From a virus (taxonomy: Duplodnaviria; Caudoviricetes), in the IMG/VR virus record IMGVR_UViG_3300008116_000002: 64,000 bases of DNA. The stretch is one strand, 5' to 3'. Under the pieces are notes generated by a model that ran no database searches, had not been told where the DNA came from, and saw only the letters and a program-made list of their open reading frames with translations. The position numbers and the translations under genes are program-made. How positions within the stretch are numbered: the first letter of the stretch is position 1; each line of letters starts with the position of its first letter. Shown piece after piece: positions 13,225 through 17,724 of this stretch.

Positions 13225-14034
13225 ATGGATGAATATTCAAATTTTTTACCTACGTATGGTATTGTTGGATTGGGGTTCGTAGGCTCTGCAGTTAAGCATT
13301 CAATGCAGGGCAGGGCTAATATTAAAGTAGTCGATGTTGATCCAACCAAATCTTCGCATAGTATAGAACAGTTAATAGATTGTGAAGGTGTTTTTGTTTG
13401 TGTACCAACACCTCAGGCAGATGATGGAGTGTGCGATACGTCAGCTTTAGAAGATGTTTTGACCAAATTAGAATACTACACCGGACCAATTATCAGTAAG
13501 TGTACTGCTCCCCCTGCTTTTTATAAAAAGTTGAGCGAGAAGTATATTAATCTGATCCATGCCCCAGAATTTCTAACTGCGGCAAATGCTAAGCAAGATT
13601 ATATATTAGGCACTTTTGCTATGATTGGCGGATCATCTAGTGCGTTTAGAGGTGAGGCGGAACGTATTATAAGAATTGGGCAAAAGAATTTAAAAGACGT
13701 TAGACATTGTAGTGTTGAAGAAGCAGCGTTGGCAAAGTATGGCATTAATACTTTTCTTGCAACCAAGATTGTGTTCATGAATGAAATGTATTTGCTTTGT
13801 GAAAAGACAGGAGTAGACTTTGATAAGGTTGCCGAGTTAATTAAACTTGATTCTCGTATTGGTTCTACTCATATGAAAGTACCAGGACCAGATGGCTTTG
13901 GTTTTGCAGGAATGTGTTTTCCTAAAGACACTTCTGCACTATATCATTATGCGAAATCAAATGGTATAGAAATGGAACATATGAAAAATGTAATTGAAGT
14001 AAACAAAAAGTTAAGAAACATCGGTAAAAACTAA
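13225..14034 (+). CDS. ugd: UDP-glucose/GDP-mannose dehydrogenase family protein (short form)
   Basis: GIVGLGFVG Rossmann motif, FVCVPTP, PEFL, KYGINTFLATKI, GFAGMCFPKD. Confidence 0.9.
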   Translation: MDEYSNFLPTYGIVGLGFVGSAVKHSMQGRANIKVVDVDPTKSSHSIEQLIDCEGVFVCVPTPQADDGVCDTSALEDVLTKLEYYTGPIISKCTAPPAFYKKLSEKYINLIHAPEFLTAANAKQDYILGTFAMIGGSSSAFRGEAERIIRIGQKNLKDVRHCSVEEAALAKYGINTFLATKIVFMNEMYLLCEKTGVDFDKVAELIKLDSRIGSTHMKVPGPDGFGFAGMCFPKDTSALYHYAKSNGIEMEHMKNVIEVNKKLRNIGKN

Positions 14035-14043
14035 GACTTACTG

Positions 14044-14051
14044 TATAAATA
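14044..14051 (+). promoter_or_regulatory. T4-type late promoter upstream of the tRNA-array leader
   Basis: Exact TATAAATA. Confidence 0.8.
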
Positions 14052-14072
14052 ATTGATACTTTAAGGAAACAA

Positions 14073-14177
14073 ATGTTTCATCTAATACAAAACCCCAGTG
14101 TAAGTTGCAAGTCATATGACAGACAGTCAGAGGCCTTTGCACGCACAAATATTCTATGGAGTTATATCGAGGGTTAG
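14073..14177 (+). CDS. Putative attenuator leader peptide (34 aa, contains all 20 amino acids)
   Basis: SD TAAGGA; MFHLIQNPSVSCKSYDRQSEAFARTNILWSYIEG*; last codons overlap an antiterminator strand. Confidence 0.75.
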   Translation: MFHLIQNPSVSCKSYDRQSEAFARTNILWSYIEG

Positions 14178-14204
14178 AGTATTAAAACGATACTAAGTTT
14201 TGAT

Positions 14205-14241
14205 AACCCTCGGCACTCACAAGGTCCCGAGGGTTTTTGTT
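14205..14241 (+). terminator. Intrinsic terminator/attenuator upstream of the tRNA array
   Basis: AACCCTCGG(14205-14213)/CCGAGGGTT(14227-14235) plus TTTGTT; the 5' arm can alternatively pair with CGAGGGTTA(14168-14176). Confidence 0.8.
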
Positions 14242-14277
14242 ATGAGGTGTTAACACTTTAATAAGTCAAAAAAGTGC

Positions 14278-14306
14278 TTGACACAGATACCAAGTTGTGC
14301 TATAAT
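14278..14306 (+). promoter_or_regulatory. Strong sigma70-type early promoter of the tRNA array
   Basis: TTGACA-17 bp-TATAAT with extended TG. Confidence 0.88.
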
Positions 14307-14384
14307 AAGCACATATTAAAGAAGTAGGCAATGCAAGACAGCGTTGCTTGTAGTAAATGTTATTTAACAATTTGTACTAGTTTT

Positions 14385-14461
14385 GCCCACTTAGCTCAGT
14401 CGGTTAGAGCACAATCTTGATAAGGTTGGGGTCCCTGGTTCGATTCCAGGAGTGGGTACCA
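14385..14461 (+). tRNA. tRNA-Ile(GAU)
   Basis: Cloverleaf, anticodon loop TTGATAA, encoded CCA. Confidence 0.95.
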
Positions 14462-14462
14462 A

Positions 14463-14538
14463 GTCCCATTCGTCTAGTGGCCTAGGACATCGCCCTTTCA
14501 CGGCGGTAACAGGAGTTCGAGTCTCCTATGGGACGCCA
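14463..14538 (+). tRNA. tRNA-Glu(UUC)
   Basis: Cloverleaf, loop CTTTCAC, CCA. Confidence 0.95.
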
Positions 14539-14581
14539 TTTGATATGCCGATTGAGAAATAGTACAGTCAACATATCAAAT

Positions 14582-14659
14582 GGTAAGGTGGCTGAGTGGT
14601 CCAAAGCAGCAGTCTGCAAAACTGTAAAGCCGCCGGTTCAAATCCGGCCCTTACCTCCA
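14582..14659 (+). tRNA. tRNA-Cys(GCA)
   Basis: Cloverleaf, loop CTGCAAA, U73 discriminator, CCA. Confidence 0.93.
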
Positions 14660-14664
14660 GATAA

Positions 14665-14739
14665 GGTCTCAAAGTGTTCATGGACGCACATATGCCTGTC
14701 ACGCATAAAGAAGGGGATCGTTACCCCTTGAGACCGCCA
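14665..14739 (+). tRNA. tRNA-Asp(GUC), atypical D and T loops
   Basis: Acceptor GGTCTCA/TGAGACC, loop CTGTCAC, G73, CCA; T loop reads GATCGTTA instead of GTTCGA. Confidence 0.85.
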
Positions 14740-14780
14740 GAACCCCCGGGATCCCTTACCCGGTAATATTACTAGGGGGT

Positions 14781-14946
14781 ATTGACAGCCACAATGTCAG
14801 GGTGTCGAGATCGGAGCTACCTCAAAACTCCTGGGAAGGAGTGACGAAAAGTCTCGAAGGACAGCGCTGCAACTGACCTTAATAAAAGCGGACGGACAGT
14901 GAAACAACTCAGGAAAGGGCGAGTGCTGGGTGCTCGTAGCTTTCCA
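14781..14946 (+). ncRNA. Putative structured ncRNA A ending in CCA
   Basis: GC-richer intergenic stretch with several stems; GAGCTAC/GTAGCTT helix followed by T-CCA; shares a GGACAG..AACAACTC.AG motif with ncRNA B. Confidence 0.5.
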
Positions 14947-14948
14947 TT

Positions 14949-15030
14949 GCCCATGTGGTGAAATGGTAGACACGCTTGCCTTAGGAGCAAGTACGAGAGT
15001 GTGGCGGTTCGAGTCCGTCCATGGGCACCA
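14949..15030 (+). tRNA. tRNA-Leu(UAG)
   Basis: Cloverleaf with variable arm, loop CTTAGGA, CCA. Confidence 0.93.
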
Positions 15031-15122
15031 TATTGAAGTGTTGTTTAGGGTGGCAGGTAAAAGTTTAACAAGACTTTGAGGGCTGGAATTCCCGATCTGT
15101 GAACAGCAGAACACTTCAATAT

Positions 15123-15197
15123 GGGGAATTGGCGTAATTGGGAACGCAGTAGCTTTGCAAGCTTCAGTCAGGAGTTCGAATCTCCTATTCTCCACCA
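15123..15197 (+). tRNA. tRNA-Ala(UGC)
   Basis: G3:U70 pair, loop TTTGCAA, CCA. Confidence 0.94.
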
Positions 15198-15204
15198 AAT
15201 ATTT

Positions 15205-15282
15205 CGGGGAGTAGCTTAGTCCGGTTAAAGCGCCTGCTTTGGGAGCAGGAGATCGAGAGTTCGAATCCCTCTTCCCCGACCA
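15205..15282 (+). tRNA. tRNA-Pro(UGG)
   Basis: Cloverleaf, loop TTTGGGA, CCA. Confidence 0.95.
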
Positions 15283-15289
15283 GTTTTAT

Positions 15290-15364
15290 TCCAGAGTAGC
15301 TCAGCGGCAGAGCCGCGGACTGTTAATCCGTTGGTCGTTGGTTCGATCCCAACCTCTGGAGCCA
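15290..15364 (+). tRNA. tRNA-Asn(GUU)
   Basis: Cloverleaf, loop CTGTTAA, CCA. Confidence 0.95.
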
Positions 15365-15370
15365 GTTTTA

Positions 15371-15455
15371 GGATGACGAGCAGCATTGGTGACTGCAGCA
15401 GACTGTAAATCTGTCGCCTCAGGCATACGGGGTTCGATTCCCTGGTCATCCACCA
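15371..15455 (+). tRNA. tRNA-Tyr(GUA)
   Basis: Cloverleaf with variable arm, loop CTGTAAA, CCA. Confidence 0.93.
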
Positions 15456-15458
15456 TAC

Positions 15459-15533
15459 GGGAGATTAGCTCAGTGGTAGAGCAGCGCCCTTACAAGGCGA
15501 AGGTCAATGGTTCGACCCCGTTATCTCCTACCA
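15459..15533 (+). tRNA. tRNA-Val(UAC)
   Basis: Cloverleaf, loop CTTACAA, CCA. Confidence 0.95.
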
Positions 15534-15541
15534 GATTTTAT

Positions 15542-15618
15542 CTGGCGTTAGCTCAGTTGGATAGAGCAACAGCCTTCTAAGCTGTGGGTCGGGGGTTCGA
15601 ATCCCTCACGCCAGGCCA
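15542..15618 (+). tRNA. tRNA-Arg(UCU)
   Basis: Cloverleaf, loop CTTCTAA, CCA. Confidence 0.96.
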
Positions 15619-15624
15619 TACAAT

Positions 15625-15698
15625 TGGGGATTAGTGAAATGGTATCACACCGGATTTTGATTCCGAGGTCGTAAGTTCGATTCTTACATCCCCTGCCA
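15625..15698 (+). tRNA. tRNA-Gln(UUG)
   Basis: Cloverleaf, loop TTTTGAT, CCA. Confidence 0.93.
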
Positions 15699-15730
15699 AA
15701 TCGTTATTAAAGTGTTAATAAAACAAATGC

Positions 15731-15759
15731 TTGACAAGAAATTGATTCGGTGTTATAAT
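15731..15759 (+). promoter_or_regulatory. Strong sigma70-type early promoter
   Basis: TTGACA-17 bp-TATAAT with extended TG. Confidence 0.88.
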
Positions 15760-15788
15760 TATGATATAATGTAAATAAGGAGATACAA

Positions 15789-15929
15789 ATGCAACGAAAA
15801 CGTATCGCCAAGCCCCGTAACCCGCTGGTGGCTTTGGCATTGTTTAAGAAAGCGGGTAAGCATCAAAAAACAAACAAAGCATTACGTAGGGAATATAGAG
15901 CGGGCATAGCTCAGTTGGTAGAGCAGTAG
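15789..15929 (+). CDS. Small Lys/Arg-rich protein whose stop lies inside tRNA-Lys (46 aa; missed by the ORF track)
   Basis: SD TAAGGAG; MQRKRIAKPRNPLVALALFKKAGKHQKTNKALRREYRAGIAQLVEQ*. Confidence 0.75.
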   Translation: MQRKRIAKPRNPLVALALFKKAGKHQKTNKALRREYRAGIAQLVEQ

Positions 15930-15975
15930 ACTTTTAATCTATGTGTCGTGGGTTCGAATCCCTCTGCCCGTACCA
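15900..15975 (+). tRNA. tRNA-Lys(UUU)
   Basis: Cloverleaf, loop CTTTTAA, CCA. Confidence 0.95.
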
Positions 15976-16056
15976 TATTAAAACACATTTCGAGCGGTGT
16001 TCCGATATCGGCCAGCCCGCCCCAAAGTAGATGTCTAGGGTAGTGTGTTTTAATAT

Positions 16057-16405
16057 GGTGAAGAAGCAAGGTTGGGATTTCGTCAGATAATGACGGTGCG
16101 CTGAAAAAACCCAGTAATGCGAAGCCGAAAGGCATCCTTGCGGTAAGCAGAAAGTTGGCGTGGCGACCAATCATCATAAAGTTCCGGTTACTACTTTCCT
16201 GAAAGTAGCGTATGGTAAACGAGAAAGTCCCGGTGGCTATGGCACCGTTAGCGAGACATAGACTCTGTATTTCGATGCGGTGTCTCCGGTGTCTCAGACA
16301 ACATAGCAACGTGGACACTACGCAGCAAACCGCTATTAGTGTTTGGACAGGGCAACAACTCCAGCATAGGGGCGATCTGTGGAAAGACGTGGCCTAAGCA
16401 AGAAT
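16057..16405 (+). ncRNA. Putative large structured ncRNA B (about 350 nt)
   Basis: Many stems in an AT-rich genome: GCAAGG/CCTTGC, CGTCA/TGACG, GCC-GAAA-GGC, CTACTTT/AAAGTAG, CGGTG/CACCG, GAGACA/TGTCTC with an inner UUCG hairpin; no credible ORF; flanked by tRNAs. Confidence 0.6.
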
Positions 16406-16410
16406 ACGAT

Positions 16411-16486
16411 GGTGTCTATAGTGTAGTGGTCTGCACGCCAGATTGTGGGCCTGGCAGTATGAGTTCAATCCTCATTAGACACCCCA
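16411..16486 (+). tRNA. tRNA-His(GUG)
   Basis: G-1 and C73, loop TTGTGGG, CCA. Confidence 0.9.
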
Positions 16487-16540
16487 AAGTTAATCGCGTG
16501 TGAGGCGTGGGGCTTCGGCCCCTAACCTATTTGTACTTGT

Positions 16541-16630
16541 GGAAGTGTGGCAGAGTCCGGTTTATTGCAACAGTCTTGAAAACTGTCGAACAGAAATGTT
16601 CCGTGAGTTCGAATCTCACCGCTTCCGCCA
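16541..16630 (+). tRNA. tRNA-Ser(UGA)
   Basis: Long variable arm, loop CTTGAAA, G73, CCA. Confidence 0.95.
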
Positions 16631-16643
16631 CTAAGGAGTAATT

Positions 16644-16793
16644 ATGCCAATGTATGAAACAACAGTAAGAACGCCACAGGGTGAAGTAAAAGATAGAGTG
16701 TTTGCAAAAGATTTACAAGAAGCAAGAATGCTTTTTGAACAAAGACACGGACCTAGAAACGTACCATATATACCTAAAGTAATTCCAAGTTAG
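16644..16793 (+). CDS. Small hypothetical protein (49 aa; missed by the ORF track)
   Basis: SD TAAGGAG; MPMYETTVRTPQGEVKDRVFAKDLQEARMLFEQRHGPRNVPYIPKVIPS*. Confidence 0.7.
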   Translation: MPMYETTVRTPQGEVKDRVFAKDLQEARMLFEQRHGPRNVPYIPKVIPS

Positions 16794-16805
16794 AAGGAGA
16801 AACAA

Positions 16806-17369
16806 ATGCCTGCAATTTTTTTAGTTAGTGATACTCATTTCGGCCATGCAGGCGTTTGTAAATTTCTACGTGACGATGGCACTAAATTACGTCCATGGGA
16901 TAACCCCGAGGACATGGATGAAGAAATGGTCAAGCGGTGGAATGAAACTGTTAGACCAAAAGATAAAGTTTATCATTTAGGAGATGTAGTTATTAATCGA
17001 AAGGCTTTAAAAACGCTTAGTAGATTAAACGGTGAAAAGGTCTTAATCAAAGGTAATCACGACATCTTTAAACTTGAAGAATACACTGAGTATTTTAAAG
17101 ATGTTCGAGGTTATCATGTACTGAATGGAATGATTCTAAGCCACATTCCTATTCATGAAGAAAGCCTTGCGAGGTTCGGGACTAATATTCATGGACATCT
17201 ACATTACAATCGTGTAAAGAAAAATGAAGTCATTGATCCTCGTTATCACTGCGTATGTGTAGAGCATACCGACTACCGCCCAATTCTTTTTGAGGATGTC
17301 ATTAAAAAGATTCAAGAAGAGGGTGGGCATATTGGATTTAAAAATGGCAATGGACCTATTATAGATTGA
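16806..17369 (+). CDS. Calcineurin-like metallophosphoesterase
   Basis: SDTHFGH, HLGDV, KGNHD, SHIP, IHGHLH motifs. Confidence 0.93.
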   Translation: MPAIFLVSDTHFGHAGVCKFLRDDGTKLRPWDNPEDMDEEMVKRWNETVRPKDKVYHLGDVVINRKALKTLSRLNGEKVLIKGNHDIFKLEEYTEYFKDVRGYHVLNGMILSHIPIHEESLARFGTNIHGHLHYNRVKKNEVIDPRYHCVCVEHTDYRPILFEDVIKKIQEEGGHIGFKNGNGPIID

Positions 17370-17379
17370 GGAGTTTGAA

Positions 17380-17586
17380 TTGAATACTAAGTTGAAAGCA
17401 ATTAAACAGACAGCTATGATGGTAGTTATCATATGTCTTATTCCTATGATTCTAACGTTTTTGTTTACTTCCGAGATAGCATCTTATATTTTTATCATAG
17501 GTATGGTAGCATTTTTTATATACATTATGTATTCTGTAAATCTAGCATTTATAGAATTTGAGGAAAAGTTTAAAAATAAGGAGTAA
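17380..17586 (+). CDS. Small two-TM membrane protein
   Basis: TTG start after GAGGAG; two hydrophobic helices. Confidence 0.55.
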   Translation: MNTKLKAIKQTAMMVVIICLIPMILTFLFTSEIASYIFIIGMVAFFIYIMYSVNLAFIEFEEKFKNKE

Positions 17587-17592
17587 GTATTT

Positions 17593-17687
17593 GGAGCGTT
17601 GGCCGAGTTGGTCGAAGGCACTTTCCTGCTAAGAAAGCATCTGGGCAAAAACCTGGATCATTGGTTCGAATCCAATACGCTCCGCCA
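17593..17687 (+). tRNA. tRNA-Ser(GCU)
   Basis: Long variable arm, loop CTGCTAA, CCA. Confidence 0.94.
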
Positions 17688-17692
17688 GCAAT

Positions 17693-17724
17693 GCCCCCGT
17701 AGTTTAATGGTAAAACAGCGGATT
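17693..17724 (+). pseudogene. Orphan 5' half of a tRNA, broken in the anticodon loop
   Basis: GCCCCCG-TA-GTTTAATGGTAAAAC-A-GCGGA-TT gives the 5' acceptor strand, D arm and 5' anticodon strand; no matching 3' half found; a late promoter follows directly. Confidence 0.75.

What the first reader, a model, noticed from the sequence alone, without database searches (positions are those of the whole stretch)
14781..14946. Second ncRNA candidate with a tRNA-like CCA end, sharing a core motif with the larger one
Seen: stems TGACA/TGTCA, TCGAGAT/GTCTCGA and ACTCC/GGAGT, and a terminal helix GAGCTAC/GTAGCTT followed by T-CCA just before tRNA-Leu. It contains GGACAGTGAAACAACTCAGGAAAGGGCGA, while ncRNA B contains GGACAGGGCAACAACTCCAGCATAGGGGCGA. 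Inference: two paralogous RNAs with a common functional module; this one may be a tRNA mimic (decoy for anticodon nucleases or synthetases).
Basis: partly seen in the sequence, partly recalled or inferred. Interest (0 to 1): 0.6.

Follow-up and report, generated by a model that had tools for sequence, protein, structure and literature searches.

The report
New pseudoknotted RNA in phage tRNA array
The 209-base gap between two tRNA genes of this T4-like freshwater phage encodes a real, expressed, heavily pseudoknotted RNA. It belongs to a large family, absent from Rfam, that sits between tRNA genes of uncultivated phages, and its "tRNA-like CCA end" is a coincidence.

Summary
RNA A is real but is not a tRNA mimic.

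Three of the four covary with the one ortholog (L107) and with the family.
- **Acceptor helix and CCA.** The 'acceptor' helix is broken in L107. The two C of 'CCA' are the last pairs of a closing helix that covaries across 85 distinct sequences. Other members do not end in CCA.
- **Shared motif.** It is far from chance. It marks about 85 phage tRNA-array loci in IMG/VR.
- **Covariance model.** A model of the 3' module, built without this window or L107, finds exactly two copies in the 64 kb: A (E 1.5e-12) and B (E 4.6e-12).
- **Architecture.** A and B share a 5' pseudoknot, a hairpin whose loop pairs downstream, a conserved 17-19-nt strand and a 3' hairpin.
- **Distribution.** No match in Rfam 15. 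The B core and a 3' module drew no family match in 50,697 cultured-phage records, and the consensus 19-mer drew none in 185,579 prokaryote genomes.
- **Expression.** A freshwater metatranscriptome holds exact contigs of A alone and of B alone.

Function is unknown. My best guess is a stable trans-acting RNA excised by tRNA processing. The scan had already met the B class in other genomes.

The parts
14278..14306 (+). Consensus sigma-70-type promoter that drives the first tRNA block, including RNA A
   Evidence: 12/12 hexamer match with TG extension. No promoter or terminator flanks RNA A itself.
14665..14739 (+). tRNA-Asp with encoded CCA; 5' neighbour of RNA A
   Evidence: ARAGORN and Rfam tRNA model.
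14740..14948 (+). RNA A, whole element (A-like class of the family)
   Evidence: 80% identical syntenic ortholog L107:7009-7217. Same size and placement as family members: motif 143-165 nt after one tRNA and 55-66 nt before the next. Exact 187-nt metatranscriptome contig covers 14742-14928.
14742..14780 (+). 5' H-type pseudoknot. P1 14742-44/14778-80; S1 14746-50/14759-63; S2 14753-56/14774-77.
   Evidence: Family alignment A5: 84% of cells paired against 68% in shuffles, 0/500 shuffles reach the observed value, and all four S1 pairs change on both sides.
14783..14799 (+).
   Evidence: Two compensatory changes and one G-U change in L107. The loop consensus is seen in A2.
14800..14822 (+). Hairpin Px (14800-03/14819-22). 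Its loop bases 14805-11 form pseudoknot PK1.
   Evidence: Stem covaries in A2.
14851..14857 (+).
   Evidence: One compensatory and one improving change in L107. Ten different complementary strand pairs are readable across 22 family members. The equivalent helix in the B class is 100% paired, with 3 pairs changed on both sides.
14827..14842 (+).
   Evidence: One compensatory change in L107.
14859..14890 (+). Hairpin H4 (14859-64/14873-78). Tentative pseudoknot PK2: loop 14865-68 with 14887-90.
   Evidence: H4 has two compensatory changes in L107. PK2 is supported in other members by my reading, but not position for position in L107.
14894..14912 (+). Conserved strand shared with RNA B and the whole family
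   Evidence: Copies found by the model rather than by the pattern keep most of it.
14912..14945 (+). 3' hairpin: closing helix 14912-17/14940-45, internal loop, inner stem 14920-26/14930-36
   Evidence: Model R1, 46.6 bits, E 1.5e-12. Covariation score 0.587 against 0.169 in shuffles, 0/500. One compensatory change in L107.
14949..15030 (+). tRNA-Leu. Its RNase P site would set the 3' end of RNA A.
   Evidence: ARAGORN. The RNase P step is inferred from established tRNA processing.
16183..16411 (+). RNA B core, the co-resident paralog (B-like class)
   Evidence: Aligns to 23 homologs. R1 hit at 16339-16413, E 4.6e-12. Structure counts. RNA contigs lie at 16061-16373, 16147-16370 and 16084-16447; a relative's contig starts at 16183 directly after adapter sequence.

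Best explanation
RNA A (14740-14948) is a genuine, expressed, roughly 205-nt structured non-coding RNA.

**What it is.** It is one of two co-resident paralogs, an A-like and a B-like class, of a large family that I found in neither Rfam nor the papers searched. Family members occupy single inter-tRNA gaps in the tRNA arrays of uncultivated large phages.

**How it is made (inferred).** It has no promoter of its own. It is transcribed from the promoter at 14278 as part of the tRNA precursor. It is then released by the host's tRNA-processing enzymes:
- RNase P, cutting at the 5' end of tRNA-Leu, makes its 3' end;
- an endonuclease cut in the short A-rich spacer after tRNA-Asp's CCA makes its 5' end.

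**How it folds.** The fold is compact: a 5' H-type pseudoknot, a hairpin whose loop pairs about 40 nt downstream, probably a third pseudoknot, a conserved 17-19-nt strand, and a 3' hairpin with a conserved internal loop.

**What it does (inferred, low confidence).** It accumulates as a stable RNA and acts in trans. It probably presents the conserved strand and 3' hairpin to a conserved partner in the host's translation or tRNA machinery.

The 'CCA' is only the end of the closing helix plus one conserved unpaired A.
For: **Family membership**
- The motif scan returned 117 loci. About 85 are tRNA-array loci with the same 3' module.
- Model R1, built without the window or L107, hits A at E 1.5e-12 and B at E 4.6e-12. 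It hits nothing else in the 64 kb.
- R1 gives 96 hits in 86 sources, and ten sources hold two copies.

**Structure**
- Against L107, 52 pairs in ten helices divide as 40 unchanged, 7 compensatory, 3 compatible on one side and 2 broken at helix ends.
- The 5' pseudoknot, the 3' hairpin and the B-class helices all exceed every one of 500 shuffles and all slid controls.

**Expression**
- Metatranscriptome X15 holds a 187-nt contig at depth 87, identical to 14742-14928, and a 313-nt contig identical to 16061-16373.
- In the same run, depth is zero over the flanking tRNAs, so this is not DNA carry-over.

**Co-transcription**
- Two perfect promoters lie at 14278 and 15731, and none lies next to A.

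**Not a known family**
- Rfam 15 gives only tRNAs on A, B and 38 loci, even at E up to 10 on A alone.
- BLAST queries with the B core and with one family member's 3' module drew no family match in 50,697 cultured-phage records. A's own gap, queried with its two flanking tRNAs, matched there only over those tRNAs.
- The only exact hit of the consensus 19-mer in 185,579 prokaryote genomes is a chance coding match.
Against: - No RNA ends are mapped. Contigs cannot show ends, and the A contig stops at 14928, not 14946-48.
- Processing by RNase P and an endonuclease is inferred from the layout, not shown.
- Nothing shows a trans partner. No antisense target exists in the window, and complementarity to E. 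coli rRNA is at chance level.
- In related phages the B class has its own promoter and sits directly before a tRNA. A cis leader role is therefore not excluded.
- PK2 is not kept position for position in L107.
- Motif conservation is partly an artefact of the exact-pattern search. Copies found by the model vary at 2-5 positions.
Confidence: 0.6

Rival explanations
1. tRNA mimic. A terminal 7-bp acceptor-like helix followed by N-CCA would make RNA A a decoy for synthetases, the CCA-adding enzyme or anticodon nucleases.
For: The helix 14814-20/14936-42 and the CCA at 14944-46 exist in this one sequence. L107 also reads CCA at the equivalent place. The RNA lies among tRNAs.
Against: - L107 breaks two internal pairs of the helix and has no compensating change.
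- The CC is paired in a helix that covaries family-wide.
- Most members, and RNA B, do not end in CCA.
- There is no tRNA, tmRNA or Y-RNA-like match at E up to 10.
- There is no T-loop sequence.
Confidence: 0.04
2. Cis-acting element of the tRNA precursor. The RNA would be a folding insulator, or a leader that directs or times RNase E or RNase P cleavage or the transcription of the neighbouring tRNAs, with no role after excision.
For: - It always abuts a same-strand tRNA upstream, and a tRNA often follows within 55-66 nt of the motif.
- In 13 related phages the B class lies between its own promoter and tRNA-Asp, like a leader.
- One RNA contig runs from B into tRNA-His, so precursors exist.
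Against: - The neighbouring tRNAs differ from phage to phage, so it is not tied to any one tRNA.
- Most tRNA junctions in this array do without it.
- Three pseudoknots and a conserved strand are far more than a spacer needs.
- It is present in RNA at high depth where the flanks are absent.
Confidence: 0.2
3. Ribozyme. The RNA would cleave itself at its 5' edge to free the upstream tRNA's 3' end, or would act on tRNAs.
For: - The pseudoknot density resembles that of ribozymes.
- The fold begins 2-6 nt after the upstream tRNA's CCA.
- From my own knowledge, not checked here: small HDV-like ribozymes adjacent to phage tRNAs have been reported.
Against: - No ribozyme family of Rfam matches at E up to 10.
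- The order of strands in the 5' pseudoknot is not that of the HDV fold, by my reading.
- Cleavage there would leave a cyclic phosphate on the tRNA.
Confidence: 0.07
4. Self-assembling or decoy RNA. It would form RNA-only multimers like GOLLD and ROOL, or imitate a piece of rRNA to soak up a ribosomal protein or a ribotoxin.
For: - It shares a genomic niche with GOLLD and ROOL (10.1101/2024.12.08.627333).
- GOLLD lies 100 nt upstream of a B-class copy in L036.
- The motif matches 23S rRNA near position 971-989 in the same sense at 15 of 19 bases; 0.3-1.3% of shuffles do as well.
- Two classes co-reside in at least ten loci.
Against: - The rRNA likeness is marginal, was found after several tries, and is weaker for RNA B at 13 of 19.
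- No self-complementary loops were seen.
- At about 200 nt it is a quarter to a third the size of the cage-forming RNAs.
Confidence: 0.08

Closest known systems
GOLLD RNA (Rfam RF02032) and ROOL RNA (RF03087)
   Same: They are structured, pseudoknotted phage RNAs of unknown function that lie in or beside tRNA arrays. One B-class copy sits 100 nt after a GOLLD in L036.
   Different: There is no model match in the window or in 37 other loci. This RNA is 190-215 nt, against roughly 600-800 nt. It fills exactly one inter-tRNA gap. Its conserved sequences differ from the GOLLD consensus shown.
Phage T4 RNA C and RNA D (species 1 and 2 stable RNAs, rnaC/rnaD)
   Same: They are small stable RNAs encoded inside the tRNA cluster of a T4-type phage. 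They are co-transcribed with the tRNAs and their function is unknown (PMC3014915; annotation).
   Different: The T4 RNAs are 119 and 139 nt. RNA D ends in CCA, and RNA C carries a T-arm-like sequence. Model R1 finds nothing in the T4 region.
The B-like class of the same family, met earlier in this scan (e1-5403640)
   Same: It shares the 3' module, the 5' pseudoknot, the loop-to-downstream pseudoknot and the tRNA-array setting.
   Different: RNA A belongs to a second, A-like class. That class has an extra hairpin (H2) and a different central domain with a probable third pseudoknot. Outside the module the two classes share almost no sequence.
tRNA-like RNAs: tmRNA, bacterial Y RNA-like YrlA (RF02553), viral tRNA-like structures
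   Same: RNA A is located among tRNAs, and this one sequence has a CCA near its 3' end.
   Different: There is no cloverleaf or acceptor/T-arm mimic. The CCA is paired and not conserved. ARAGORN and Rfam give no match.

Membership tests
Unnamed phage tRNA-array RNA family (A-like and B-like classes) | 3' module: the conserved strand followed by a closing helix, an internal loop and an inner hairpin | tested here: met
   R1, built without the window or L107, scores 46.6 bits (E 1.5e-12) at 14888-14960, and all closing-helix pairs are standard.
Unnamed phage tRNA-array RNA family (A-like and B-like classes) | 5' H-type pseudoknot enclosed by a short helix, starting a few bases after the upstream tRNA | tested here: met
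   P1, S1 and S2 lie at 14742-14780. The family alignment A5 shows covariation that 0 of 500 shuffles reach.
Unnamed phage tRNA-array RNA family (A-like and B-like classes) | A hairpin loop that pairs with a strand about 40 nt downstream, preceded by an A-rich run | tested here: met
   14805-11 pairs with 14851-57. It is compensated in L107, ten strand variants are seen in the family, and the B class is 100% paired.
Unnamed phage tRNA-array RNA family (A-like and B-like classes) | Fills one gap between same-strand tRNA genes; about 190-215 nt | tested here: met
   In RNA A the motif lies 154 nt after tRNA-Asp and 55 nt before tRNA-Leu. Family ranges are 143-165 and 55-66.
tRNA / tRNA-like | Cloverleaf recognised by tRNA models | tested here: not met
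   ARAGORN and Rfam RF00005 report nothing in 14740-14948, even at E up to 10.
tRNA / tRNA-like | Conserved acceptor helix followed by an unpaired N-CCA | tested here: not met
   The helix is broken at 2 of 7 pairs in L107. The CC is paired in the closing helix. The CCA is absent from most members.
tmRNA | tRNA-like ends plus a tag reading frame | tested here: not met
   ARAGORN finds no tmRNA in the window.
GOLLD (RF02032) / ROOL (RF03087) | Match to the Rfam covariance model | tested here: not met
   No hit at E up to 10 on 14000-17700 or on A alone. The GOLLD model does find a true GOLLD in L036.
RNase P RNA | Match to the Rfam RNase P models | tested here: not met
   No hit at E up to 10. 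The purine-rich run before 14851 pairs locally as PK1, not as a long-range P4.
T4 RNA C / RNA D | Sequence or structure homology to T4 rnaC or rnaD | tested here: not met
   The best R1 score in the T4 tRNA region is 1.9 bits and lies outside rnaC/rnaD. This tests only the 3' module.
Self-cleaving ribozymes (HDV-like, hammerhead, twister, pistol, hatchet, glmS) | Match to an Rfam model | tested here: not met
   None listed at E up to 10.
Self-cleaving ribozymes (HDV-like, hammerhead, twister, pistol, hatchet, glmS) | Site-specific self-cleavage | not testable with these tools
   Needs an in vitro cleavage assay.

The most novel reading that the evidence does not exclude
The A-like and B-like RNAs are two subunits or isoforms of a new RNA machine of large phages that works directly on tRNAs or ribosomes. 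It might hold tRNA 3' ends or elbows, act as a ribozyme, or imitate an rRNA site to disarm a host defence. That would explain why two diverged classes are kept side by side in the same tRNA array.
Probability: 0.15. Interest if true: 0.85.

Novelty: new variant of a known kind. Interest (0 to 1): 0.64.

Why it matters
Structured RNAs of unknown function in phage tRNA clusters have been an open problem since T4 RNA C and D, and again since GOLLD and ROOL.

- **A tractable third example.** This RNA is only about 200 nt, has three pseudoknots, is widespread, and is present at depth in environmental RNA.
- **Two co-resident classes.** Showing that RNA A is a second class of the same family gives natural chimeras. 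These point to the shared 3' module and the 5' pseudoknot as the functional parts.
- **Unbiased variants.** The family model also finds copies whose motif differs from the search pattern, which a full covariation analysis needs.
- **Annotation.** The result removes a tempting but wrong 'tRNA mimic' label.

Tried and rejected
- **Thermodynamic fold of A alone.** z = -0.97, uninformative, because pseudoknots are not modelled.
- **RNase P RNA idea.** It was prompted by purine-rich runs and an 'AGCAAACCGC'-like stretch in B. I dropped it: no Rfam hit, the run is not conserved in the B class, and in A it is part of PK1.
- **Double T-loop (tRNA-elbow binder) idea.** The AG..A and UG..A signatures described in PMC3664808 are not evident in the motif, so it stays a low-probability thought.
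- **Group I intron likeness.** Short similarities to recalled intron sequence only, and no Rfam hit.
- **Kissing between the H2 loop and the 3' hairpin loop.** I saw no covariation when reading the alignment.
- **Pairing of the motif with the 'GUUAY' stretch of the 5' domain.** Variants are not compensated.
- **Antisense targets.** None in the window. Complementarity to E. coli 16S, 23S and 5S rRNA is at chance level.
- **More A orthologs.** The upstream dehydrogenase-like gene brought none. The helicase brought 79 new loci, of which 13 carry a copy, all B-class. L107 therefore remains the only A ortholog.
- **Whole genome of the window.** Not held.
- **Genome-collection scan.** One chance coding match only.
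- **Contig ends as RNA ends.** The RNA A contig stops at 14928. This says nothing about the true 3' end.
- **Paper searches.** They found no description of this family.

Full report
**Setting.** The window carries 25 same-strand tRNA genes. It also carries a T4-type UvsX recombinase and a DnaB-like helicase, so it comes from a T4-like phage. Sequencing runs that hold this stretch are mostly labelled freshwater, lake-water or fungus metagenomes. RNA A lies between tRNA-Asp (14665-14739) and tRNA-Leu (14949-15030). Two perfect sigma-70-type promoters lie at 14278-14306 and 15731-15759. Neither a promoter nor a terminator flanks RNA A, so it is transcribed inside the first tRNA block.

**The observation.** The 17-nt motif occurs at 14894 and 16345 only. 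Shuffles give a mean of 0.01 matches, and none of 100 reaches two. Folding energy alone is unremarkable (z = -0.97), so the case rests on comparison.

- About 32 are chance matches, most of them in one coding gene.
- About 85 are phage tRNA arrays. There the motif is followed by the same closing helix, internal loop and inner hairpin.
- In these loci the motif typically starts 143-165 nt after a same-strand tRNA and 55-66 nt before the next.
- RNA A, at 154 and 55 nt, is therefore a standard-sized member and not a reduced copy of B.

**Model of the shared module.**
- I built model R1 from 75 such modules, leaving out the window and its one ortholog.
- With filters off, R1 finds two matches in the 64 kb: A at 14888-14960 (46.6 bits, E 1.5e-12) and B at 16339-16413 (45 bits, E 4.6e-12). 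The next best match has E 1.6.
- Over 86 sources it finds 96 matches. These include copies whose motif differs from the search pattern, and ten sources hold two copies.
- On the resulting alignment of 85 distinct rows, 80% of cells pair, against 55% in shuffles. The covariation score is 0.587 against 0.169. No shuffle and no slid control comes close.

**The CCA.**
- In the R1 alignment, C14944 and C14945 pair with G14913 and G14912 as the outermost pairs of the closing helix.
- A14946 matches a consensus A in that alignment, and most members aligned also have an A directly after the closing helix (my reading).
- In L107 one A-U pair of this helix has become G-C.
- Most members, and RNA B, do not end in CCA.
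- No tRNA, tmRNA or Y-RNA-like model matches.
- The tRNA-mimic reading is therefore not supported.

**The rest of RNA A.** L107:7009-7217 is 80% identical to RNA A and syntenic, with the order Ile, Glu, Cys, Asp, RNA, Leu.
- Over ten helices, 52 pairs divide as 40 unchanged, 7 compensatory, 3 compatible on one side and 2 broken at helix ends.
There a short helix encloses an H-type pseudoknot. Across 22 A-like sequences it is 84% paired against 68% in shuffles, and all four S1 pairs change on both sides.
- PK1 shows ten different complementary strand pairs in those 22 sequences, by my reading.
- A further pseudoknot would join the H4 loop to the bases just before the motif. It covaries among several members but not position for position in L107, so I mark it tentative.

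**A and B are one family.** The B core (16183-16411) aligns with 23 homologs, and with 30 once the relatives found through the helicase are added.
- Its equivalent of PK1 is 100% paired, with three pairs changed on both sides.
- Its S2 is 100% paired.
- Its S1 has one invariant pair and one pair that switches cleanly between G-C and C-G.
- The two RNAs thus share a plan: 5' pseudoknot, hairpin with a loop-to-downstream pseudoknot, conserved strand, 3' hairpin. They differ in the centre.

**Expression.**
- Freshwater metatranscriptome X15 contains a 187-nt contig (depth 87) identical to 14742-14928. It also contains a 313-nt contig identical to 16061-16373.
- In that run the flanking tRNA genes and most of the remaining stretch have no depth. 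The few other matches are 90-95% alike and probably come from other organisms' tRNAs (my inference). DNA carry-over would not give this pattern.
- Two other runs hold exact B contigs. In a fourth, a relative's B-class contig begins exactly at the B core's first bases, directly after adapter sequence. That hints at a defined RNA end.
- Contigs cannot prove ends, so the 3' end of RNA A remains unmapped.

**Not a known family.**
- Rfam 15 returns only tRNAs on A, on B and on 38 loci. The one exception is a true GOLLD in L036, 100 nt upstream of its B-class copy.
- The T4 tRNA region, with rnaC and rnaD, does not match R1.
- BLAST queries with the B core and with one family member's 3' module drew no family match in 50,697 cultured-phage records. 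A's own gap, queried with its two flanking tRNAs, matched there only over those tRNAs.
- The only exact hit of the consensus 19-mer in 185,579 prokaryote genomes is a chance coding match.
- I found no paper describing the family.
- Earlier agents of this scan met the B class in other genomes and also called it undescribed.

**Mechanism.**
- Shown: a conserved, pseudoknotted RNA, present in environmental RNA at depth, and co-transcribed with tRNAs.
- Inferred: release by RNase P on the 3' side and by an endonuclease in the A-rich spacer on the 5' side; accumulation as a stable RNA; action in trans through the conserved strand and 3' hairpin.
- The partner is unknown. I found no antisense target.
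- A same-sense likeness of the motif to 23S rRNA near position 971-989 (15 of 19 bases) is marginal.
- A cis role in precursor handling remains a serious rival, because related phages place the B class between its own promoter and a tRNA.

**Verdict.** The paralogy is confirmed and extended. The tRNA-mimic reading is rejected. RNA A is a new, second class of a widespread and apparently undescribed family of phage RNAs.

Noticed in passing
window 16061-16182: The 5' part of 'RNA B' is a separate conserved cassette. It is 79-84% identical to stretches in L039 and L005, where it lies apart from the B-class core; in L005 it lies downstream of it. In metatranscriptome X15 it is contiguous with the B core (contig 16061-16373).
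   Followed up: partly
L189:11001-11249, L170, L145, L184, L168, L160, L151 and others: In 13 phages with a 77-80% identical helicase, a B-class RNA lies between tRNA-Cys and tRNA-Asp. It has its own TTGACA-N17-TATAAT promoter about 20 nt upstream, and its motif differs from the consensus at 2-3 positions.
   Followed up: partly
L035:10728-11000, L048:3383-3655, L077:1995-2267, L093:2925-3197: A 90-residue PpiC-type parvulin (prolyl isomerase) gene with its own ribosome-binding site starts a few bases after the A-like RNA and before tRNA-Met. Pfam PF00639 matches at E 7e-23.
   Followed up: partly
L036:1381-1845: A GOLLD RNA (214 bits) with a tRNA nested in its linker lies 100 nt upstream of a B-class RNA (1947-2134) in the same array.
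   Followed up: no
window 14894-14912 against E. coli 23S rRNA (L120:3030-3048): The conserved strand matches 23S rRNA near position 971-989 in the same sense at 15 of 19 bases, and 0.3-1.3% of shuffles do as well. The match is marginal and unexplained.
   Followed up: partly
window 14536-14583, 15028-15124, 15972-16059: Three other inter-tRNA spacers are long inverted repeats that begin at the upstream tRNA's CCA. I saw them while reading the sequence, and they are also in earlier notes of the scan.
   Followed up: no
L009, L005, L020, L039, L041, L050, L069, L071, L075: Each of these stretches holds two family copies within a few kilobases. In L071 they are one A-like and one B-like copy, as in the window. 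The other eight pairs I did not classify one by one.
   Followed up: partly
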